Source of the DNA: Escherichia phage vB_EcoM-RPN242
Strand: one strand, 5' to 3'
Sequence record: OL656110.1
DNA: 64,000 nucleotides
A model generated the notes under the pieces. That model saw nothing but the letters and a program-made list of their open reading frames with translations, was not told the origin of the DNA and did not search any database. Below, one piece after another: positions 7,101 through 25,382 of this stretch (position 1 is the first letter of the stretch; each line of letters starts with the position of its first letter). The translations under genes and the position numbers were made by a program.

Positions 7101-7117
7101 CTAACAGGAGGTGCGCA

Positions 7118-7315
7118 ATGTACAAGTTCAGAATTAACAGAGAACGTAATTCGTCCAAATTCGGTGTAATCGCTGGGGTGTGTTTGTTCCTGGCGCTCGA
7201 AAGCGTTATCGGCCTGCTTACAACACCACAAATGCAGGTGACTCGTTACCTTCTTGCCATTATATTTTCTGTTGTCGGTTTACTCTGCTCCTATTTGGGG
7301 TGTGTGAAGAAATAA
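7118..7315 (+). CDS. hypothetical small membrane protein
   Basis: 65-aa ORF with strong SD AGGAGG; two hydrophobic segments. Confidence 0.5.
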   Translation: MYKFRINRERNSSKFGVIAGVCLFLALESVIGLLTTPQMQVTRYLLAIIFSVVGLLCSYLGCVKK

Positions 7316-7357
7316 ACTGGCTACACACAGCAATACTTTGATTTGAGAAACTACATC

Positions 7358-7846
7358 ATGATGCTGTTAATGAGCGTTCCACAGAACAAGATGACCCCTG
7401 CAACAGAGGGTAAGAATCACTTCAACATCTACAGCCGGAGCCAGACGGAACTCGGGCGCTTCCTCTCGCATTTTACCCATCATCCAATGACTACCCATGA
7501 ACATGGTGTGTTTAACTCCATGGAGGGGTACTGGTATTGGCTGAAGTATAGGGATGACAACCTGCGCCTGCTCGACGGTTATGAGGCCAAGCAATATGGA
7601 CAGGGATTGGCGGCTTCCCGCGTCATTGTCCTGGACCCGTCTACCGAAGAATTCAAGCGCGATATCCTATTTGCAACTAGTATGAAACTCCAGACAATGC
7701 CTGAACGTCTGAAGATCAGATTGGCGTACAGTCGCCTACCCCTGATCCATGCATATGTTCAGAACGGGAAATACAGTTTTCAAAACTCTATGGACTATAT
7801 CATTGCCCACATTAATCGTCTCCGCATACAAGGAACTTTGAAATGA
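7358..7846 (+). CDS. NADAR-like (YbiA/DUF1768-like) domain protein, candidate ADP-ribosyl-nucleobase hydrolase
   Basis: motif series IYSRS, LGRFLSHF, FNSMEGYWYWLKY, YEAKQYGQG, SMKLQTMPERLKIRL matches my recollection of NADAR signature blocks (FYS.S / DFSNF / SEHYFQA.K); ATG 7358. Confidence 0.5.
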   Translation: MMLLMSVPQNKMTPATEGKNHFNIYSRSQTELGRFLSHFTHHPMTTHEHGVFNSMEGYWYWLKYRDDNLRLLDGYEAKQYGQGLAASRVIVLDPSTEEFKRDILFATSMKLQTMPERLKIRLAYSRLPLIHAYVQNGKYSFQNSMDYIIAHINRLRIQGTLK

Positions 7847-8424
7847 AATTTCTACACACTATCGTCGACACTTCTTATGACTGCACTGCTCATACCCCAG
7901 ACCGTTCGCCTGTGTTTGTTCTGAACAAACTAGGTGAAGAGATCTGTGAACTGTCTGATGTGTTTCATGGCATAGTATCTTCCGAGCCGTTGAATGGCGA
8001 AGTTGCTGATGTCATTATCTCTGCTATTGACCTTCTGTACGTCATGGATTATGACGACGTCCAAATGCGCGGCTCTCTGAACAAGGCCGAAATGATCGAC
8101 TCTGTCATCAACCACATGGCGACAGTGAACGATATTTCTTCTAATCTGTTGGAAGAAGACTGGTTCCGTCTGATTGATCGTGATCCTCAAAAGCATCTGA
8201 ATCTTATCCATCATTATCATGGCCGGATTATCCGATTGTGCAACCAACCTTATCGCAGTCAAGACAGATTGGATCATCTTGTCAATGACCTAATCAAGCA
8301 TGTTGCGCGCATGGGGTGTGGGGAAGGGGCGATCCGTGGATCCTCTTTGATGGCCACTCGCATTAAAGTGGAGCACGCTATTGAACACAAGGTTGAAAAG
8401 TGGCGTAGCAAATTTGGCTTATGA
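7843..8424 (+). CDS. MazG-like all-alpha NTP pyrophosphohydrolase (putative)
   Basis: LNKLGEEICELSDV resembles the MazG E-E-x-x-E metal-binding helix; ATG overlaps upstream stop (ATGA). Confidence 0.4.
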   Translation: MKFLHTIVDTSYDCTAHTPDRSPVFVLNKLGEEICELSDVFHGIVSSEPLNGEVADVIISAIDLLYVMDYDDVQMRGSLNKAEMIDSVINHMATVNDISSNLLEEDWFRLIDRDPQKHLNLIHHYHGRIIRLCNQPYRSQDRLDHLVNDLIKHVARMGCGEGAIRGSSLMATRIKVEHAIEHKVEKWRSKFGL

Positions 8425-9251
8425 AATACGAAATCATCTTAGACGCTCTCATACAGAGAGCAATACAGAGAGGTAAAATGGATGGCGTTTATCAAGAACG
8501 CCACCATATAATCCCTGTGTGCTTGGGTGGCACTAACCACTTCTCTAATCTTGTATGGTTGACACCAGAAGAACATTATGTCGTACATCACCTACTTTGG
8601 AGAACAAAACCACTCAACCCCGGTATCAGGAAGGCATGGACTGGGATGAACAACATGTCTAGGAACAACAAAGAGTTTGGGGAATTGAGGAGAAATAATT
8701 CCGCCAGAATGAAAGAAGTGATGTCATCTGATGAACAAAAGGAACGTTGTCGTAAGCAATCCAAGAAAAACTCATTGAACCCAGAAGTACAGAAGAAACG
8801 TGCGGATAGCTTGAGAGGTTACACTTGGAATGACGAATCAAGGCGCAGGTTGTCAAAATCCAGGAAAGGGATACCACACTCCGAAGCACACAAAGCCAAT
8901 CTTACCAAATCAGTCACCGAACGGATGAGGCGACCAGAAGAAAGGGAGAGGTATTCTGCTATGTGGCGCCAGAACAATCCCATGAATAACATACAACCTT
9001 GGGAACACCCGACTGTCGTAAAGACGGGTAAATCCCGACAATGGCTCTTGGCTGGTGAATTCTTTGAATGGTGGTATAGTAACGGTGAAGACAAAGTGAA
9101 GAACCGTTATTGTTTAATGTTGAAAGAAACCGGGTTAAGCTCTGTTTGTTCTAAGGCCACAGCTCAAACTTGTATATCTAAATTTCAGAAAGGTTGGATA
9201 CCAAAAGAAGATCCCGCCTGGTTGAAATTTTACGGAGATAATAATGGTTGA
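8421..9251 (+). CDS. HNH homing endonuclease with NUMOD-like motifs
   Basis: HNH core HHIIPVCLGGTNHFSNLVWLTPEEHYVVH; repeated SRKG.PHSE-type motifs; paralogous to ORF 24783-25382; sits immediately upstream of topoisomerase gene. Confidence 0.75.
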   Translation: MKYEIILDALIQRAIQRGKMDGVYQERHHIIPVCLGGTNHFSNLVWLTPEEHYVVHHLLWRTKPLNPGIRKAWTGMNNMSRNNKEFGELRRNNSARMKEVMSSDEQKERCRKQSKKNSLNPEVQKKRADSLRGYTWNDESRRRLSKSRKGIPHSEAHKANLTKSVTERMRRPEERERYSAMWRQNNPMNNIQPWEHPTVVKTGKSRQWLLAGEFFEWWYSNGEDKVKNRYCLMLKETGLSSVCSKATAQTCISKFQKGWIPKEDPAWLKFYGDNNG

Positions 9252-11142
9252 TGTAAACAGAAAATACAAAAAGCTCTCACACATCGAGCATATACTCCTT
9301 CGCCCAGAGCGCCATCTAGGGAGTATCCGTTCTTCTGTCGGGATGGCTTGGGTATATGATCTCAGCAAAGACAAAGTTGTGTTTAAAGACAATTTTGAAT
9401 ATAACCCCGCTCTTATCAAACAGTTTGATGAAATCATCACCAACTGTGTTGACCACAGCAAGACCCCTGAGGGTAAATCCCTGACGGAAATCACCGTCAC
9501 AGTTTCCCCGATGAACGGTCAAATCATCGTTGCTGACAACGGGGGTATCCCTGTGGTCAAACATGAATCTGGTATGTGGTTGCCAGAAATGTTATTTTCA
9601 GAATTGTTTGCGGGATCGAACTTCAACGACGAAGACGAAGAGTACAACAACCAGAAGTCCGGTGGTCAGAATGGCGAAGGGGCGTCCCTCGTCAACGTGT
9701 TCTCCAAATGGTTCCGCATCACGACTAATGACGGCAAGAAGTCTTATACTCAGACGTTTGAAGACAACATGAGCAAGAAATCTAACCCAGTCATCAGCAA
9801 CGTGAACAGTCCCGGCACATCCATCGCCTGGATCCCTGACTATGCTCGCCTGGGCGTCAAAGGACTTGACCAGAACAACCTGCTGATGATCTATCGCCGC
9901 GCGTTTGAAGTGGCTGCGTGTAACCCGCGCCTGAAGATTGTTCTCAACGGGAAGCAAATCCGGATTGACCGCTTTGGCCACTTCGTTGATTACTTCCATG
10001 CTGGTTCGGCTGTTGACGAAACCGGGGATTGGTCTGTTGCTGTAGCCCCTTCATCCGGTACGTTCATGCACGCATCATACGTGAACTCTATTGCCACCCA
10101 CATCGGTGGTCCTCACGTTGATTATGTTGCCGACCAGATCGTGGCAGCGATTCGTCCCCAGCTGGTGAAGAAGTTCAAGACCGAGCTGAAACCTGCCATG
10201 ATCAAGAACCACATGTCCTTGTTCATCGCTGCCGACATCAACAACCCGCGCTTTGACAGCCAGACCAAGGAGCGCATGACCACTCCTGTCAGCCAGTTCG
10301 GTACGTCGTACAAGCCCAGTGATAAACTGATCCGCAAGGCGCTTGAGTTCGTTACGGCTGGTCTGAGCAAAGAACTGGCTTCCCTGCGCAATGAGCAGGA
10401 CGATGCTGAGTTTGAAAAGGCCAAGAAGGACATCAGCAAGCGGGATTATCGTGAGATTGAGAAGTATTACCCGGCGACCGCCCGTGGTGACCGCAGCGGA
10501 TGCTCCCTGTTGCTGACAGAGGGTGATAGTGCCTCCAATCCTATCCTGAATGCCCGCGACACCAAGAAGATCGGGTTGTTCCCGCTTCGTGGTAAGTTCA
10601 TCAACTGCCTGAACGCCCCGCGCTCAAAGGTGATGAACAATGAAGAGTTCAAGAACCTGTGTACGATCCACGGCGGCGCAGTGCCAGGCCAGCCCCTTGA
10701 TATCACCCGTTACCCACAGACTGTTGTGGCTACCGATGCGGACGATGATGGCATCCACATCCGTGGGTTGTTGATCACCCTGTATTGCACCTACTGGCCG
10801 GAGTACGTCCGTCAGGGCAGGCTGAAGCTCCTGCGCACCCCTTACATGCGTGTGTGGTGTGGTAAGGTGATGCATGAGTTCATGAACAACGCAGAGTATG
10901 AGGAGTTCCTGAAGACGCCTGATGCCAAGAAGATCACGAAGAAGAAATATCTGAAAGGTCTGGGTGGTAACAGCACTGAAGACTTCAAACGTATTCTAAA
11001 CAACCTGGATGCGTATACTACGACGGTCACGCTGGACGATGGCTATCAACAGTCACTGAAGAATGGCTTCGGTGATGAGGCCGCCGATTACCGCAAAACC
11101 TGGTTTAGCGATGTTTGCCTGTTTGAAACTGAGGATGAATAA
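9244..11142 (+). CDS. 39: DNA topoisomerase II large subunit (GyrB-like, fused gp39+gp60 equivalent)
   Basis: 632 aa; GHKL ATPase and TOPRIM-region motifs LLLTEGDSA, PRFDSQTKER; SD GGAGA. Confidence 0.9.
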   Translation: MVDVNRKYKKLSHIEHILLRPERHLGSIRSSVGMAWVYDLSKDKVVFKDNFEYNPALIKQFDEIITNCVDHSKTPEGKSLTEITVTVSPMNGQIIVADNGGIPVVKHESGMWLPEMLFSELFAGSNFNDEDEEYNNQKSGGQNGEGASLVNVFSKWFRITTNDGKKSYTQTFEDNMSKKSNPVISNVNSPGTSIAWIPDYARLGVKGLDQNNLLMIYRRAFEVAACNPRLKIVLNGKQIRIDRFGHFVDYFHAGSAVDETGDWSVAVAPSSGTFMHASYVNSIATHIGGPHVDYVADQIVAAIRPQLVKKFKTELKPAMIKNHMSLFIAADINNPRFDSQTKERMTTPVSQFGTSYKPSDKLIRKALEFVTAGLSKELASLRNEQDDAEFEKAKKDISKRDYREIEKYYPATARGDRSGCSLLLTEGDSASNPILNARDTKKIGLFPLRGKFINCLNAPRSKVMNNEEFKNLCTIHGGAVPGQPLDITRYPQTVVATDADDDGIHIRGLLITLYCTYWPEYVRQGRLKLLRTPYMRVWCGKVMHEFMNNAEYEEFLKTPDAKKITKKKYLKGLGGNSTEDFKRILNNLDAYTTTVTLDDGYQQSLKNGFGDEAADYRKTWFSDVCLFETEDE

Positions 11143-11143
11143 G

Positions 11144-12475
11144 ATGGTTGCTAAGAGCATTACTGTAACGGACTTTGTCAACACTGACCATAAGCAGTTT
11201 TCTGTGGTCAACAGCATCCGCCAAATCCCTCAGCTGATTGACAGCCTCAAGCCAAGCCAGCGCAAGATCCTTTTCGCTGCACTTGAGTACAATAAGGAGG
11301 AGATTGTTGACCGCCTTGGTATGTTCGCCGCCGCTCGCACCAACTACAAGTCTGGTGGTGAGAACATGAGCGGCACTATCGTGAACATGGCTCAGGGGTT
11401 CCCAGGCACGAACAACATCCCGTACTTTGACCGCGATGGCCAGTTTGGTTCTATCATGGGGCGTGACGCGTCGTCGGCACGTTACATTTCGGTGGCTGTA
11501 TCTGATGTTATCCGCAAGATCTTCCGCAAGGAGGATGAGGGTATCTTGGAATACAACTACCTTGGTGAAGAAAGGCTGGAGCCGAAGTTCTTTCTGCCCA
11601 TCCTACCCATGTTCCTGGTGAATGGGATCAATGGTATCGGCACCGGATATTCCACCGACACCCCGTGTCATTGCGTTAAGTCCGTGCTGAATGCCCTGAG
11701 AGCGCTTCTCCGTGGCGAAGACCCGAAAGACTTAAAACCGTACTGGAACGGCTTCAAAGGAGAGACAGGCTATACTGAGGAAGGAAGAGCATACAGTCGT
11801 GGTATCTTCCGTCGGGTCAATGCCACGACCCTGCATATCACCGAAGTCCCAGTGGGTTGGTTCGCCAAAACCTATGAGACCAAGGTGTTGCTGCCTCTGT
11901 ACAAGGCAGGTATCCTCACCGAGTACGCCAACGACACGACGGAAGATGGCTGGGATATCACGGTTGTGTTTAAGCGCGGCGAACTCTCTAAGCTGAGTGA
12001 CGAGCAGGTTGAGCAGATGTTCAAGCTGTATTCAGCCACCAAGCCTGTTTGGACGGCCTGGGATGAAGACGGTGTTATTCATCGTTATTCTGGTTGGCGG
12101 GACATGTTGCTGCCGTTCTTCAACTATCGCCTGTCCCGGTATGAAGACCGTCGCCAGTATCTGTTGAAGGACATGGCAGACAGGATCCGCAAGCTGGGTG
12201 ACCGGGCGGTGTTCATTGAATGGGCGACGCGTGTTGATCTCCGCCAAAAGATTGACGTGCTGAAGTCTCTGTTCATGCAGGACTACCCGGACTTTGGTGG
12301 TGATCTTGACGAGTTGTTCAAGATGCCTCTGTCGTCTATTACTCTGGACGCCCGTGAGCGCCTACTCAAGCAGATAGAGAACCTTGAAGCACAGCACAAG
12401 GAATTAAGTAAGAAAGAGGACATCGATCTTTACACTGATGACCTTGATGACCTTGAAAAGGCTCTTGGTCTTTAA
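11144..12475 (+). CDS. 52: DNA topoisomerase II medium subunit (GyrA-like, gp52)
   Basis: ATG 11144 after SD GAGGA, 1 nt after gp39 stop; GyrA-like motifs GQFGS, ARYI, GIGTGYSTD. Confidence 0.85.
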   Translation: MVAKSITVTDFVNTDHKQFSVVNSIRQIPQLIDSLKPSQRKILFAALEYNKEEIVDRLGMFAAARTNYKSGGENMSGTIVNMAQGFPGTNNIPYFDRDGQFGSIMGRDASSARYISVAVSDVIRKIFRKEDEGILEYNYLGEERLEPKFFLPILPMFLVNGINGIGTGYSTDTPCHCVKSVLNALRALLRGEDPKDLKPYWNGFKGETGYTEEGRAYSRGIFRRVNATTLHITEVPVGWFAKTYETKVLLPLYKAGILTEYANDTTEDGWDITVVFKRGELSKLSDEQVEQMFKLYSATKPVWTAWDEDGVIHRYSGWRDMLLPFFNYRLSRYEDRRQYLLKDMADRIRKLGDRAVFIEWATRVDLRQKIDVLKSLFMQDYPDFGGDLDELFKMPLSSITLDARERLLKQIENLEAQHKELSKKEDIDLYTDDLDDLEKALGL

Positions 12476-24029: not shown

Positions 24030-24695
24030 TCAGATTCCGTGGGCTTGTATTAGCTCACGGAGTCTCTGTTTTGAATATGTGGTATCCTCATCCGGAACCA
24101 CAGCATTCGTCTTCCTGAGCAAGAACGCCTCTGAGTTCCAGTAGATGTCATCACGCAGAATCGTATCGTATAGATGAATGAAACCAACGATCTTGTTCAG
24201 ACCGACAAGGAACCAAATCGGGAACTTCTTGACGATGATGTCTGTCAGCAACGGTGGATGACCTGTACCCGTCCCCTTGATGTACTCAATGAAGGTGCAG
24301 TTGCGCTCCCTTATGGCAGGGATCATTTCCCGTTCGAACTCCTCAAGGAAGTTATATGTGAAGTTCTCGTACAACTTACGGTATTCATCATAATTGGCCT
24401 GAGCCTGGCGTGTAAGCAATGTCGTCACCCAGGTCTTGGGTGATTTGATGAAGTTGGCAATGATGTAGTTCTCTACCACTTCACCCTGTGATGACTCGAA
24501 TCGACGGGCAAGGCGAGCAAACTGTTTGCACACGGCCTCCTTCGCCAAGAACGTCTCGAACTTGTAATTCATCGGTCCATACAAGCTGTAATCGAAGTCC
24601 TTAGTGGTGAAGTGCAGCTTGATCGCCATGAAGACACAGTAAACGTTGAACGCCCGCTCGAACTGCATTTTTTCCCAATCGGTATACTCACGCAT
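24030..24695 (-). CDS. helicase loader (gp59-like), putative
   Basis: 221 aa (T4 gp59 is ~217 aa); N-terminal VYCVFMAIKLHF...FARLARRF pattern resembles recalled gp59; strong SD GAGGAA. Confidence 0.4.
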   Translation of the reverse strand: MREYTDWEKMQFERAFNVYCVFMAIKLHFTTKDFDYSLYGPMNYKFETFLAKEAVCKQFARLARRFESSQGEVVENYIIANFIKSPKTWVTTLLTRQAQANYDEYRKLYENFTYNFLEEFEREMIPAIRERNCTFIEYIKGTGTGHPPLLTDIIVKKFPIWFLVGLNKIVGFIHLYDTILRDDIYWNSEAFLLRKTNAVVPDEDTTYSKQRLRELIQAHGI

Positions 24696-24782
24696 TTTTC
24701 ATTTCCTCGAAAAACTTAACCCAATTCTCATCATTGTACGGCACCCATCCTTTTTGAAATCTTTGTATGCAACTTTTGGCGG

Positions 24783-25382
24783 TCATTTCGGCGCGATCCA
24801 CCCCAATTCCTTGACCATCGTTACATTTCGACATATGCCTAACCTGGCACCATCGGCTACCCACCAATCATAGAATATTCCTGCCAAAGCCCAATATTTG
24901 CGGGTATGCGTCGCATTTGGACTTTCCCAAGGCTTTGAATGGATTTGTTTTAATTTGGAACGTTGTGAATCTGATTTGGGTCTGCCCATCAGCGAATCGG
25001 AAATTTTCGATCTGTGTTCACGGGATAACGCCACCCCCTTGAATCTTTCACTGCATTTTTGTTTAAACTCTGGAGTGCTGTTAGCTGTCTTCACCCTTTC
25101 CCATTTTCTGAGAGCGAACTCTTCGTATTGGCGTGAAGTTTGTGATTTTGATATATTTCTCATCAAAGAAAAGATTTTCACGTATGCAGGAGACATACTG
25201 AATATCTTGGCCAAAAGTTTGTGAACTATGAAATGTTCCCGAGCAGTTAGAACAGCAATATTCTCCGCAGTATCAGCCCCTCCCAAGCTCCTGGGTTCTT
25301 TATGGTGTCTTTCTGAATACCCAATCAGATTGCGAGAATAAGACCTTTCAAGGATAGAAACCAACGCTCGGGTATAGTTCAT
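24783..25382 (-). CDS. HNH homing endonuclease with NUMOD-like motifs
   Basis: HNH core ERHHKEPRSLGGADTAENIAVLTAREHFIVH; C-terminal PWESP...YWALAGIFYDWW parallels ORF 8421-9251. Confidence 0.75.
   Translation of the reverse strand: MNYTRALVSILERSYSRNLIGYSERHHKEPRSLGGADTAENIAVLTAREHFIVHKLLAKIFSMSPAYVKIFSLMRNISKSQTSRQYEEFALRKWERVKTANSTPEFKQKCSERFKGVALSREHRSKISDSLMGRPKSDSQRSKLKQIHSKPWESPNATHTRKYWALAGIFYDWWVADGARLGICRNVTMVKELGWIAPK

What the first reader, a model, noticed from the sequence alone, without database searches (positions are those of the whole stretch)
8421..9251. HNH homing endonuclease inserted upstream of topoisomerase II
A free-standing HNH/NUMOD gene sits between early small genes and gp39, overlapping neighbours by a few nt. 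Such genes are mobile in T4-like phages and mark recent insertion sites. It is paralogous to the second HNH gene at 24783-25382 (shared C-terminal PWE.P ... W.LAG.F.WW block).
Basis: partly seen in the sequence, partly recalled or inferred. Interest (0 to 1): 0.5.

Follow-up and report, generated by a model that had tools for sequence, protein, structure and literature searches.

The report
Mobile HNH endonuclease gene beside topoisomerase
This is an intact selfish "homing endonuclease" gene, already annotated in related phages (F-LimI of Dickeya phage LIMEstone1), which has recently jumped between Vi1-like (Ackermannviridae) phages and dragged the first ~410 bases of the neighbouring topoisomerase gene with it. 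It is an ordinary but unusually clean example of a known kind of element.

Summary
ORF 8421-9251 (+, 276 aa) is intact. It overlaps the upstream MazG-like gene by 4 nt (ATGA) and the topoisomerase II large-subunit gene (gp39-like) by 8 nt. It carries a complete HNH motif.

The phage belongs to the Ackermannviridae (Aglimvirinae), not to the T4-like phages in the strict sense. The gene is the ortholog (97.5% aa) of F-LimI of Dickeya phage LIMEstone1, a T4 Mob-type free-standing endonuclease.

- The site is empty in 236 of 273 related records.
- It is filled with a full-length gene in 33 records spread over several genera.
- It is decayed in at least four phages.

Close HEG-less relatives are 99-100% identical up to the MazG stop. 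They drop to 70-82% in the most divergent parts of the first ~410 nt of gp39, then return to ~99%. Over that same stretch the window is 95-100% identical to distant Dickeya phages. The gene therefore moved as a cassette with co-conversion of gp39's 5' end.

Its cleavage target is inferred, not shown. It most likely lies in gp39 at about 9565-9650.

The second HNH gene is a true paralog, but here it is frameshifted; the full gene spans 24688-25382.

Verdict: already known kind and family; low-to-moderate interest.

The parts
8421..9251 (+). Free-standing Mob-type HNH homing endonuclease gene (276 aa), ortholog of F-LimI of Dickeya phage LIMEstone1
   Evidence: The ORF is intact. PHROG 655 matches at E 9.5e-66. 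It is 97.5% aa identical to F-LimI and 99.6% to the PH4/PC3 gene annotated 'HNH homing endonuclease'. dN/dS is 0.09-0.12 against diverged orthologs.
8421..8606 (+). N-terminal HNH (beta-beta-alpha-metal) nuclease domain, aa 1-62
   Evidence: Invariant E26, H28, H29, N43, H52 and H56. The AF2 model shows helix 3-17, strands 26-29 and 44-47, and helix 49-62, with pLDDT 93-98. Pfam HNH/HNH_5 matches are sub-threshold. The top Foldseek PDB hits are all HNH nucleases, but none is significant. It is 43% identical to the N-terminal fragment of T4 MobA.
8619..8990 (+). Central basic helical repeats (degenerate NUMOD3-like linker), aa ~67-190
   Evidence: The AF2 model shows seven helices (H67-79 to H172-185) plus the short H187-190, with block-mean pLDDT mostly 90-98, falling to 82 at residues 181-190. 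NUMOD3 gives only E 0.71. Most homologs carry PF07460.
8991..9248 (+). C-terminal helical domain (PWE..WW..KFQKGWIP), presumed DNA-binding and specificity module
9234..9246 (+). gp39 Shine-Dalgarno sequence (GGAG, 9234-9237) and start codon (9244-9246), both embedded in the 3' end of the endonuclease gene
   Evidence: Read directly from the sequence. HEG-less relatives instead have a 49-nt intergenic region and a different gp39 start, MSNKIDIE....
9244..9650 (+). Co-converted 5' part of gp39 that travels with the endonuclease gene (HEG-linked allele)
   Evidence: Window against HEG-less YX22: 70-75% identity at 9201-9400, 82% at 9501-9600, and 99% from 9701. Window against the distant LIMEstone1: 95-100% over the same stretch. 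In a first panel of 18 genomes there are 40 fixed-difference columns, all within 9244-9608. Beyond about 9633-9651, KE31 and maane equal CBA120, and ChubbyThor equals MK-13 (97-100%).
9565..9650 (+). Candidate recognition/cleavage region ('block B'). The HEG-linked allele encodes KHE-SGMWLPEMLFSELFAG, against KHGVTNEWLPEMLFGSLYAG in HEG-less alleles (one codon shorter).
   Evidence: There is a dense cluster of 18 fixed columns at 9566-9608, and a common right-hand tract boundary lies 25-45 nt downstream. The HEG-type patch occurs in exactly the 33 full-HEG records, 2 remnant records, and 3 records of two secondary-loss phages. That this is the cleavage site is an inference.
7843..8424 (+). Upstream MazG-like pyrophosphatase gene. 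Its conserved last ~70 nt form the left homology arm, and its stop codon overlaps the endonuclease start (translational coupling).
   Evidence: PHROG 1247 matches at E 1.6e-35. The gene is 37-78% identical between relatives except at its 3' end. In ChubbyThor the whole gene was co-converted.
9244..11142 (+). DNA topoisomerase II large subunit (gp39+60-like, unsplit, 632 aa): the flanking and putative target gene
   Evidence: Pfam finds HATPase_c, DNA_gyraseB, Toprim and TOPRIM_C. PHROG 543 matches at E 7e-224.
24688..25382 (-). Paralogous Mob-type HNH endonuclease gene upstream of the gp59-like helicase loader, frameshifted in this window
   Evidence: BLASTP E 2e-25 to the first gene. The tail lies in a second ORF. 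The gene is an intact 231 aa in PH4 and SW16-7. The window has G4 instead of G5 at 24801-24804. It is itself presence/absence polymorphic.

Best explanation
The ORF encodes a free-standing homing endonuclease of the T4 Mob type. It has an N-terminal HNH nuclease, a basic helical linker and a C-terminal DNA-binding domain. It is the F-LimI ortholog of an Ackermannviridae phage.

Expression: it has no recognisable promoter of its own. It is probably translated at a low level by coupling to the MazG-like gene, through the ATGA overlap.

Homing (inferred): in a cell co-infected with a relative that lacks the gene, the enzyme is inferred to nick or cut the relative's topoisomerase II large-subunit gene within its first ~410 nt. 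The most likely site is in the ATPase-domain segment that corresponds to window 9565-9650. Recombinational repair off the HEG-carrying genome then copies three things: the stretch from the break back through the endonuclease gene, a variable amount of MazG, and the HEG-linked gp39 5' allele.

Self-immunity (inferred): that linked allele differs at ~40 positions and lacks one codon. This presumably makes the carrier immune to its own enzyme.

Life cycle: the element then follows the usual course of spread, decay and loss.

Shown: gene integrity and purifying selection, conservation of the catalytic motif, presence/absence polymorphism, tract boundaries, and decay series.

Inferred: nuclease activity, target position, immunity, and mode of expression.
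For: (1) Family.
- PHROG 655 matches at E 9.5e-66.
- The HNH residues are invariant.
- The N-terminus is 43% identical to T4 MobA.
- tblastn hits in T4-like phages are annotated mobE or mobD.
- F-LimI is listed as a MobB/C/D/E homolog, free-standing, with topoisomerase II as the downstream gene (PMC3296691). It is placed with MobA-E in His-Me finger group 1 (PMC5714182).

(2) Functional constraint.
- There are no internal stops.
- dN/dS is 0.087 against KE31, 0.109 against Coodle and 0.119 against ChubbyThor.
- The AF2 model is confident, with mean pLDDT 93.

(3) Mobility.
- The empty site is found in 236 of 273 records.
- A full-length gene is found in 33 records, spread over Limestonevirus, Agtrevirus, Kuttervirus, a Yersinia phage and this E. 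coli clade.
- The window's HEG is 96-100% nt identical to that of LIMEstone1, whose MazG flank is only 64-78% identical.

(4) Co-conversion.
- Against YX22, LHE287 and fGh-Ecl02, identity is 99-100% up to position 8400, 70-94% at 9201-9700, and 99% afterwards.
- In three genus backgrounds the tract ends at the same place, about 9633-9651. The left end varies from a few nt (window clade) to the whole MazG gene (ChubbyThor).

(5) Linkage.
- The HEG-type patch at 9556-9615 occurs in 38 records: 33 with a full HEG, 2 with remnants, and 3 records of two phages that look like secondary loss.

(6) Decay series.
- maane has an internal stop, A221 a frameshift, 4HA11 an out-of-frame internal deletion, and ZQ1 an in-frame deletion.

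(7) Precedent.
- T4 MobA targets the same enzyme's gene.
- Free-standing endonucleases often cut hundreds of bp from their insertion site (PMC2988022; bioRxiv 10.1101/2022.08.31.505936).
Against: - No biochemical or genetic test of this protein or of any ortholog was found in the searchable literature.
- The Pfam HNH matches are below gathering scores, and structure searches gave no significant HNH match.
- The position of the target is not determined. The insertion itself replaces the 49-nt intergenic region and the first gp39 codons, so the target could lie at the insertion point.
- Pertopsoe and Mansal show that the patch at 9565-9608 can exist without the gene.
- The common right-hand boundary could partly reflect where homology becomes near-perfect rather than where the break is made.
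- Records include RefSeq/GenBank duplicates, so the counts are not independent phages.
Confidence: 0.85

Rival explanations
1. Same element, different target. The endonuclease cuts at or next to its own insertion point, that is the MazG-gp39 intergenic region and the first ~130 nt of gp39 in HEG-less genomes, as intron-encoded enzymes and T4 MobA do. On this view the 9565-9608 patch is only a hitch-hiking marker.
For: - The insertion replaces the 49-nt intergenic region and the first gp39 codons, which would destroy such a site.
- The empty site is very conserved across genera, at 84-100% over 185 nt, as homing targets usually are.
- In pertopsoe and Mansal, the segment that reverted to the HEG-less type is exactly the HEG plus gp39 nt 1-130, while the distal patch stayed HEG-type.
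- After adding these two phages, only the proximal differences remain perfectly linked to the gene.
Against: - All 35 HEG or remnant records keep the distal patch, although a 120-nt stretch that is nearly identical between alleles (gp39 nt 181-300) lies between it and the gene. That stretch would allow crossovers.
- In the window clade and in ChubbyThor that stretch is in fact recipient-like, yet the distal patch is still HEG-type.
- The right-hand tract boundary is the same in three backgrounds, while the left one varies.
- Distant cleavage has precedent among T4 free-standing endonucleases, e.g. SegG (PMC2988022).
Confidence: 0.3
2. Passive cargo. The gene is, or has become, an inactive passenger, and its patchy distribution arises from ordinary homologous recombination between co-infecting Ackermannviridae, without endonuclease-driven homing.
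For: - These phages are highly mosaic in this region even away from the gene. Examples are the allele classes of the MazG-like gene and of the small membrane-protein gene at 7118-7315.
- No activity data exist.
- Several copies are visibly decaying.
Against: - Strong purifying selection over long divergence: dN/dS is about 0.09 at 32% aa divergence.
- All catalytic residues are retained.
- The HEG is far more similar between genera than its flanks are.
- It is tightly linked to a specific allele of the neighbouring gene.
- These are the signatures expected of an active homing element, not of a neutral insert.
Confidence: 0.07
3. Domesticated function. The protein, or its C-terminal domain, mainly serves the phage, for example by regulating gp39 expression, excluding competing phages or degrading host DNA. 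Mobility would then be secondary.
For: - The cassette supplies gp39's ribosome-binding site and start codon.
- ZQ1 retains an in-frame ORF with only the C-terminal domain, and a stand-alone 94-aa PHROG family of that domain exists.
- Marker exclusion by homing endonucleases benefits flanking genes (PMC2988022).
Against: - 236 of 273 related records do without the gene, so it is dispensable.
- Closest relatives differ only in its presence.
- Nothing in the sequence points to a function other than site-specific DNA cleavage.
Confidence: 0.05

Closest known systems
F-LimI (ORF12) of Dickeya phage vB_DsoM_LIMEstone1, and its annotated orthologs in phages PH4, PC3, vB_CECAV_050, RC-2014 and others
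   Same: Same gene at the same position (MazG-like | HEG | topoisomerase II large subunit). It is 97.5-99.6% aa identical and has the same overlaps with its neighbours. It was named as a free-standing homing endonuclease with MobB/C/D/E homology (PMC3296691).
   Different: Only the host phage background differs: an E. coli/Salmonella Aglimvirinae clade whose flanks are 64-90% identical to LIMEstone1. F-LimI itself has never been characterised biochemically. The 2012 table lists it under GIY-YIG, which the sequence contradicts.
T4-type MobA element (HNH endonuclease that targets the topoisomerase II large-subunit gene)
   Same: An HNH endonuclease of the same size (269-279 aa against 276 aa). 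The N-terminus is homologous (43% identity to the T4 fragment). T4 gp60.1 may carry a related C-terminal domain (weak match, E 0.006 for a single pairwise comparison). It is associated with the same enzyme's gene, carries element-encoded replacement sequence for part of the target gene, is inserted independently in several clades, and decays progressively.
   Different: MobA inserts inside the Toprim domain, splits the gene into 39 and 60, and brings a 50-nt translational bypass that protects against self-nicking. Here the gene sits upstream of an unsplit 632-aa gp39. There is no coding gap. The linked polymorphisms lie in the ATPase domain.
T4 MobE (nrdA | mobE | nrdB)
   Same: A free-standing, promoter-less HNH gene between two genes. 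Its start codon overlaps the upstream stop codon, and its target lies in the downstream gene. It nicks the target and is inherited at high frequency, as does MobA (PMC2988022). tblastn hits of the query in T4-like phages are annotated mobE.
   Different: The flanking genes are different. Identity is only ~27-35% over the N-terminal 150-165 aa. The C-terminal domain is not shared.
SegG and other free-standing GIY-YIG endonucleases of T4
   Same: The logic is the same: cleavage at a distance in a neighbouring essential gene, co-conversion of flanking markers, and marker exclusion (PMC2988022).
   Different: The nuclease fold is unrelated (GIY-YIG). No GIY-YIG match was found here.

Membership tests
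T4 Mob-type free-standing HNH homing endonucleases (His-Me finger group 1: MobA-E, F-LimI, F-LimIV) | HNH / beta-beta-alpha-metal catalytic motif with conserved His, Asn and His | tested here: met
   E26, H28, H29, N43, H52 and H56 are invariant in a 60-sequence alignment and are present in the window protein. The AF2 model shows a hairpin at 26-29/44-47 followed by helix 49-62. Caveat: the Pfam HNH/HNH_5 scores are below gathering, and the Foldseek hits to HNH nucleases are not significant.
T4 Mob-type free-standing HNH homing endonucleases (His-Me finger group 1: MobA-E, F-LimI, F-LimIV) | Sequence homology to named Mob proteins | tested here: met
   43% identity to the T4 MobA N-terminal fragment, E 5e-7. 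tblastn hits are annotated mobE or 'mobile endonuclease D' in T4-like phages. PHROG 655 matches at E 9.5e-66. The literature places F-LimI with MobA-E.
T4 Mob-type free-standing HNH homing endonucleases (His-Me finger group 1: MobA-E, F-LimI, F-LimIV) | Free-standing: its own ORF between genes, not inside an intron or intein | tested here: met
   The ORF lies between the MazG-like gene and gp39. gp39 is a continuous 632-aa ORF with all its domains. HEG-less relatives have only a 49-nt intergenic region there.
T4 Mob-type free-standing HNH homing endonucleases (His-Me finger group 1: MobA-E, F-LimI, F-LimIV) | NUMOD3-type DNA-binding repeats after the nuclease domain | tested here: inconclusive
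   NUMOD3 gives E 0.71 (10.3 bits against a cut-off of 20.4) on aa 95-190. Most homologs carry PF07460. The model shows basic helical repeats.
Homing endonuclease genes in general | Presence/absence polymorphism at a fixed site among close relatives | tested here: met
   The site is empty in 236 of 273 records. A full-length gene is present in 33 records. YX22, LHE287 and fGh-Ecl02 are 99-100% identical to the window up to the insertion point.
Homing endonuclease genes in general | Co-conversion of flanking sequence with the gene | tested here: met
   gp39 nt 1-410 and variable amounts of MazG travel with the gene. The tract boundaries were mapped in the window clade, ChubbyThor, maane and KE31. 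This is comparative evidence, not a cross.
Homing endonuclease genes in general | Site-specific nicking or cleavage of the allele that lacks the gene, and resistance of the carrier allele | not testable with these tools
   There is only an inference, from ~40 allele-specific differences at 9244-9608 and their linkage to the gene.
Homing endonuclease genes in general | Super-Mendelian inheritance in mixed infection | not testable with these tools
   No experiment on F-LimI orthologs was found.
MobA-bypass element (Topo2L-splitting cassette) | Insertion within the Toprim domain that splits the gene into two ORFs, with a 50-nt translational bypass | tested here: not met
   gp39 is unsplit, with HATPase_c, DNA_gyraseB, Toprim and TOPRIM_C in one 632-aa ORF. 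The endonuclease lies upstream of the start codon.
I-HmuI-like HNH endonucleases (His-Me finger group 2: HNH_3 / zf-His_Me_endon) | Match to PF13392 or PF05551, or to the I-HmuI structure | tested here: not met
   No such Pfam match at E<=0.1. There is no PDB sequence hit to 1u3e, and 1u3e is not among the listed fold-search hits.
GIY-YIG homing endonucleases (the group listed for ORF12 in Table 1 of PMC3296691) | GIY-YIG catalytic domain | tested here: not met
   No GIY-YIG Pfam match was found. The sequence has an HNH motif instead, and PMC5714182 lists F-LimI among HNH enzymes.

The most novel reading that the evidence does not exclude
The cassette may be more than 'nuclease plus hitch-hiking markers'. 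The altered ATPase-domain patch of gp39 (KHE-SGMWLPEMLFSELFAG) contains a hairpin with a U-rich tail at 9568-9587 that only the HEG-linked allele forms. This patch could be an element-encoded protective or regulatory device, analogous in role to the T4 gene 60 bypass that shields against MobA. Nuclease-less ORFs with only the C-terminal domain, such as the one in ZQ1 (compare PHROG 25551 and T4 gp60.1), could act as target-site protectors or regulators rather than as mere debris.
Probability: 0.08. Interest if true: 0.55.

Novelty: already known. Interest (0 to 1): 0.27.

Why it matters
For annotation, the gene can be named with confidence: a Mob-type HNH homing endonuclease and F-LimI ortholog. 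The second copy should be flagged as frameshifted.

For biology, the locus is a clean natural experiment. Closely related phages with and without the gene, four stages of decay and one precise secondary loss are all available. Together they give a sharply bounded co-conversion tract and a concrete, testable prediction of where an uncharacterised Mob-type enzyme cuts: the ATPase domain of the topoisomerase II large subunit.

It also shows that the phage topoisomerase II large-subunit gene carries a Mob-type endonuclease at a second position, in addition to the MobA site in T4-like phages. This bears on why conserved replication genes attract such elements. It also bears on mosaicism in Ackermannviridae used for biocontrol.

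None of this changes the current understanding of homing endonucleases.

Tried and rejected
- PDB sequence search: no meaningful hit; the best was E 0.11, to unrelated proteins.
- NCBIfam: no family for the protein.
- Foldseek against PDB: nothing significant (best E 0.9), although the top hits are HNH nucleases.
- First word-indexed protein search: only 6 hits. A profile search was needed to reach 2507.
- Promoter/terminator scan of 7300-9600: the number of promoter-like sites is no greater than in shuffles, and none lies just upstream of the gene. It is used only as weak support for 'promoter-less cassette'.
- GIY-YIG assignment from the 2012 table: rejected.
- Membership of the MobA-bypass element: rejected because gp39 is unsplit.
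- 'Perfect' linkage of the 9566-9608 patch with the gene, seen in the first 18 genomes: had to be softened after a database-wide search found two HEG-less phages that carry the patch.
- The hairpin in that patch has modest z-scores (-1.9 and -2.4) and only two sequence variants, so covariation support is weak. It is not claimed as a feature.
Full report
**1. The observation.**

The ORF at 8421-9251 (+) is real. It starts with ATG, encodes 276 aa and has no internal stop.

- Its start codon overlaps the stop of the upstream 193-aa gene (7843-8424) as ATGA.
- Its stop (9249-9251) lies 8 nt inside the next gene, which starts at 9244.
- The upstream gene is MazG-like (PHROG 1247, E 1.6e-35).
- The downstream gene is the topoisomerase II large subunit. 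It is unsplit and 632 aa long, with HATPase_c, DNA_gyraseB, Toprim and TOPRIM_C domains (PHROG 543, E 7e-224).
- The gp39 Shine-Dalgarno sequence (GGAG, 9234-9237) and start codon lie inside the 3' end of the endonuclease ORF.

**2. What the protein is.**

Sequence evidence:
- Pfam HNH_5 and HNH match aa 24-47, but below their gathering scores.
- PHROG 655 'homing endonuclease' matches aa 1-274 (E 9.5e-66). A separate 94-aa PHROG (25551) matches the C-terminal domain alone (E 5.3e-35).
- A profile search found 2507 homologs, most of them carrying NUMOD3.
- In a 60-sequence alignment, E26, H28, H29, P32, G37, N43, L47, E51, H52 and H56 are invariant, and the window protein has all of them.
- NUMOD3 itself is not significant in this copy (E 0.71).

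Structure evidence:
- An AlphaFold2 model is confident (mean pLDDT 93). It shows an N-terminal helix, a beta hairpin (26-29 and 44-47) and a helix (49-62). A string of helices follows (67-190), and then a C-terminal helical domain.
- Foldseek gave no significant hit, but its top hits are HNH nucleases: McrA, Cas8-HNH and colicin E9.
- No solved relative is found by sequence.

Relation to the T4 Mob proteins:
- The N-terminus is 43% identical to the T4 MobA fragment.
- T4-like phages give hits annotated mobE or mobD.
- T4 gp60.1 shows the ..W..EF.RGWIP tail of the C-terminal domain. The pairwise match is weak (E 0.006 for that single comparison).

**3. Which phage, and is the gene known?**

- The 6-kb surroundings are 97.4-97.7% identical to Escherichia phages A221, PH4 and PC3 and to Salmonella phage vB_CECAV_050. 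PH4, YX22 and ZQ1 are classified as Ackermannviridae, Aglimvirinae.
- They are about 90% identical to the Dickeya limestoneviruses.
- The protein is 99.6% identical to the PH4/PC3 protein annotated 'HNH homing endonuclease domain protein'. It is 97.5% identical to F-LimI of LIMEstone1.
- F-LimI (ORF12) was named in 2012 as a free-standing endonuclease homologous to MobB/C/D/E, with topoisomerase II as the downstream gene (PMC3296691).
- A 2017 classification lists F-LimI with MobA-E in His-Me finger group 1 (PMC5714182).
- I found no functional study of it.

The thing is therefore already known as an annotation, though not as an enzyme.

**4. Mobility.**

It fails.

- A 185-nt probe spanning the empty site of phage YX22 (MazG 3' end, 49-nt intergenic region, gp39 start) is covered at 80% or more in 236 of 273 records. 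These include Kuttervirus, Agtrevirus and Taipeivirus, at 84-100% identity.
- A full-length endonuclease gene (>=68% aa) is present in 33 records. They are scattered over Limestonevirus, Agtrevirus (ChubbyThor but not Ag3 or MK-13), Kuttervirus (maane, LPST94, UTK0004, KE31, ST2), a Yersinia phage and this clade.
- These counts include RefSeq/GenBank duplicates.

**5. Co-conversion.**

Sliding identity in 100-nt windows:

| Comparison | Left flank | HEG | gp39 5' end | Further into gp39 |
|---|---|---|---|---|
| Window vs HEG-less YX22, LHE287, fGh-Ecl02 | 96-100% up to 8400 | absent | 70-75% at 9201-9400, 94% at 9401-9500, 82% at 9501-9600, 93% at 9601-9700 | 99% from 9701 |
| Window vs LIMEstone1 | 64-78% at 8001-8400 | 96-100% over 8401-9500 (HEG and gp39 start together) | 95% at 9501-9600 | about 90% beyond |

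A codon alignment of the first 780 nt of gp39 was made from 8 HEG-bearing, 2 remnant-bearing and 8 HEG-less genomes.
- All HEG or remnant genomes start MVDVNRKYKKLSHIE. All HEG-less ones start MS[ND]KIDIERKYKKLTH or MTSNVNIERKYKKLSH.
- There are 40 fixed-difference columns, all within window 9244-9608.
- They form two blocks (9244-9414 and 9566-9608), separated by a stretch that is nearly identical in everything.
- The second block changes KHGVTNEWLPEMLFGSLYAG to KHE-SGMWLPEMLFSELFAG, which is one codon shorter. It lies just after the DNGGIP motif of the ATPase domain.

Boundaries:
- Beyond about 9633-9651, each HEG-bearing phage becomes 97-100% identical to HEG-less phages of its own genus: KE31 and maane to CBA120, ChubbyThor to MK-13 and Ag3.
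- The left boundary varies. In the window clade it lies within ~12 nt of the endonuclease start. In ChubbyThor the whole MazG gene (52-76% identity to Ag3) was replaced.
- In the window clade and in ChubbyThor, the conserved stretch between the two blocks is recipient-like (100% to YX22; 99% to Ag3). The tract is therefore mosaic.

**6. Selection and decay.**

- Between diverged orthologs, dN/dS is 0.087 (KE31, 68% aa identity), 0.109 (Coodle) and 0.119 (ChubbyThor). The protein has therefore been maintained.
- Decay is also visible:
  - maane has one internal stop.
  - A221 needs two tblastn pieces.
  - 4HA11 has an out-of-frame internal deletion.
  - ZQ1 has a precise in-frame deletion of aa 2-187. 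It leaves an 89-aa ORF with only the C-terminal domain, still overlapping the MazG stop.
- A database-wide search with the HEG-type 60-mer 9556-9615 finds 38 records: the 33 full copies, ZQ1, 4HA11, and pertopsoe (two records) plus Mansal.
- Pertopsoe and Mansal are HEG-less. They have the empty-site intergenic region and a HEG-less-type gp39 nt 1-130. Their MazG gene, however, is 94% identical to maane (61% to CBA120), and their gp39 nt ~135-410 is 92-100% identical to maane.
- They are best read as secondary, precise loss of the gene by recombination with a HEG-less phage.
- Together these observations cover the expected cycle of invasion, decay and loss. This agrees with remarks on limestoneviruses in PMC6267328.

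**7. Mechanism.**

Established knowledge from T4 (PMC2988022; bioRxiv 10.1101/2022.08.31.505936):
- MobA and MobE nick their targets.
- They are promoter-less and often translationally coupled to the upstream gene.
- Free-standing endonucleases commonly cut at a distance in a neighbouring conserved gene, and flanking markers are co-converted.

By analogy, and from the anatomy above, I infer that this enzyme nicks or cuts HEG-less gp39 within its first ~410 nt. The carrier's divergent allele would be the immunity determinant.

I favour the 9565-9650 region as the target, for three reasons:
- The right-hand boundary is common to three backgrounds.
- The fixed differences there are dense, partly non-synonymous, and include an indel.
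- The patch is retained despite an intervening stretch that would allow crossovers.

A target at the insertion point is not excluded. It is listed as a rival at about 0.3.

**8. Comparison with known systems.**

- The gene is a member of the Mob/F-Lim HNH family (see the membership table).
- It is not the MobA-bypass element. gp39 is unsplit and the gene lies upstream of it, not in the Toprim domain.
- It is not an I-HmuI-type or GIY-YIG enzyme.
- The Mob-type enzymes MobA and F-LimI are thus associated with the same phage enzyme gene at two different places.

**9. The paralog.**

- The second gene is homologous (E 2e-25). It sits upstream of the gp59-like helicase loader.
- It is intact (231 aa) in PH4 and SW16-7.
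- In this window, a G5-to-G4 change at 24801-24804 shifts the frame and cuts off the last ~37 aa.
- It is absent from YX22, ZQ1, LHE287, AV101, fGh-Ecl02 and the limestoneviruses.

**10. Verdict.**

This is a correct and well-read finding of an ordinary element. The kind and the family are already known, and the orthologs are already annotated. The comparative picture is unusually clean and yields a testable target prediction, but it is not surprising to a specialist.

Interest is about 0.27.

Noticed in passing
window 24688-25382 (-), G run at 24801-24804: The second Mob-type endonuclease gene is frameshifted here. The window has G4, against G5 in phages PH4 and SW16-7, where the gene is an intact 231 aa. 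This is either a real pseudogene or a homopolymer sequencing error. The gene is also presence/absence polymorphic among relatives.
   Followed up: yes
L002 (phage ZQ1) 2418-2687; compare window 8985-9251: ZQ1 carries a precise in-frame deletion that removes the nuclease and linker. It leaves an 89-aa ORF with only the C-terminal domain, still coupled to the MazG stop. PHROG 25551 (94 aa) looks like the same stand-alone domain, and T4 gp60.1 weakly resembles it (E 0.006). It may be more than debris.
   Followed up: partly
L021 (pertopsoe) and L022 (Mansal), gp39 nt 1-410: Two Kuttervirus phages lack the endonuclease gene. They have the empty-site intergenic region and a HEG-less-type gp39 start, yet keep a maane-like MazG gene and the HEG-type gp39 patch. 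This looks like precise secondary loss that leaves a presumably resistant allele.
   Followed up: yes
window 9568-9587 (+), inside gp39: A 7-bp hairpin followed by a U-rich tail forms only in the HEG-linked gp39 allele (dG -12.3 kcal/mol, z -1.9). The diverged KE31 version keeps the pairing through two third-position changes (z -2.4). The HEG-less allele shows nothing comparable (z +0.6). Its meaning is unknown, and the statistics are modest.
   Followed up: partly
window 7843-8424: The MazG-like gene is hypervariable between otherwise close phages (37-78% nt identity, at least three allele classes), except for its last ~70 nt. Those last nucleotides are conserved in all relatives and serve as the left crossover region.
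   Followed up: partly
window ~11135-11145 (gp39/gp52 junction); L003 5151-5723, L007 4402-4848, L008 4564-4941: The junction between the two topoisomerase subunit genes is a second insertion hotspot. It holds an HNH endonuclease ORF in LIMEstone1 and other small ORFs in Ag3 and 4HA11. It is empty in this window.
   Followed up: no
window 7101-7300 (small membrane-protein gene 7118-7315): There are two allele classes. The window matches YX22, LHE287 and fGh-Ecl02 at 99-100%, but PH4, ZQ1 and 4HA11 at only 68-79%. This is another local mosaic patch, unrelated to the endonuclease.
   Followed up: no
GenBank OR844942.1 ('Enterococcus phage Efm 3-10'): A record labelled as an Enterococcus faecium phage carries this Ackermannviridae locus, including the endonuclease gene (95% aa identity). 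The record is probably mislabelled or contaminated.
   Followed up: no
PMC3296691, Table 1: The LIMEstone1 paper lists ORF12/F-LimI in the GIY-YIG group and uses the name F-LimI for two ORFs. The sequence is clearly HNH, and a later classification agrees.
   Followed up: yes
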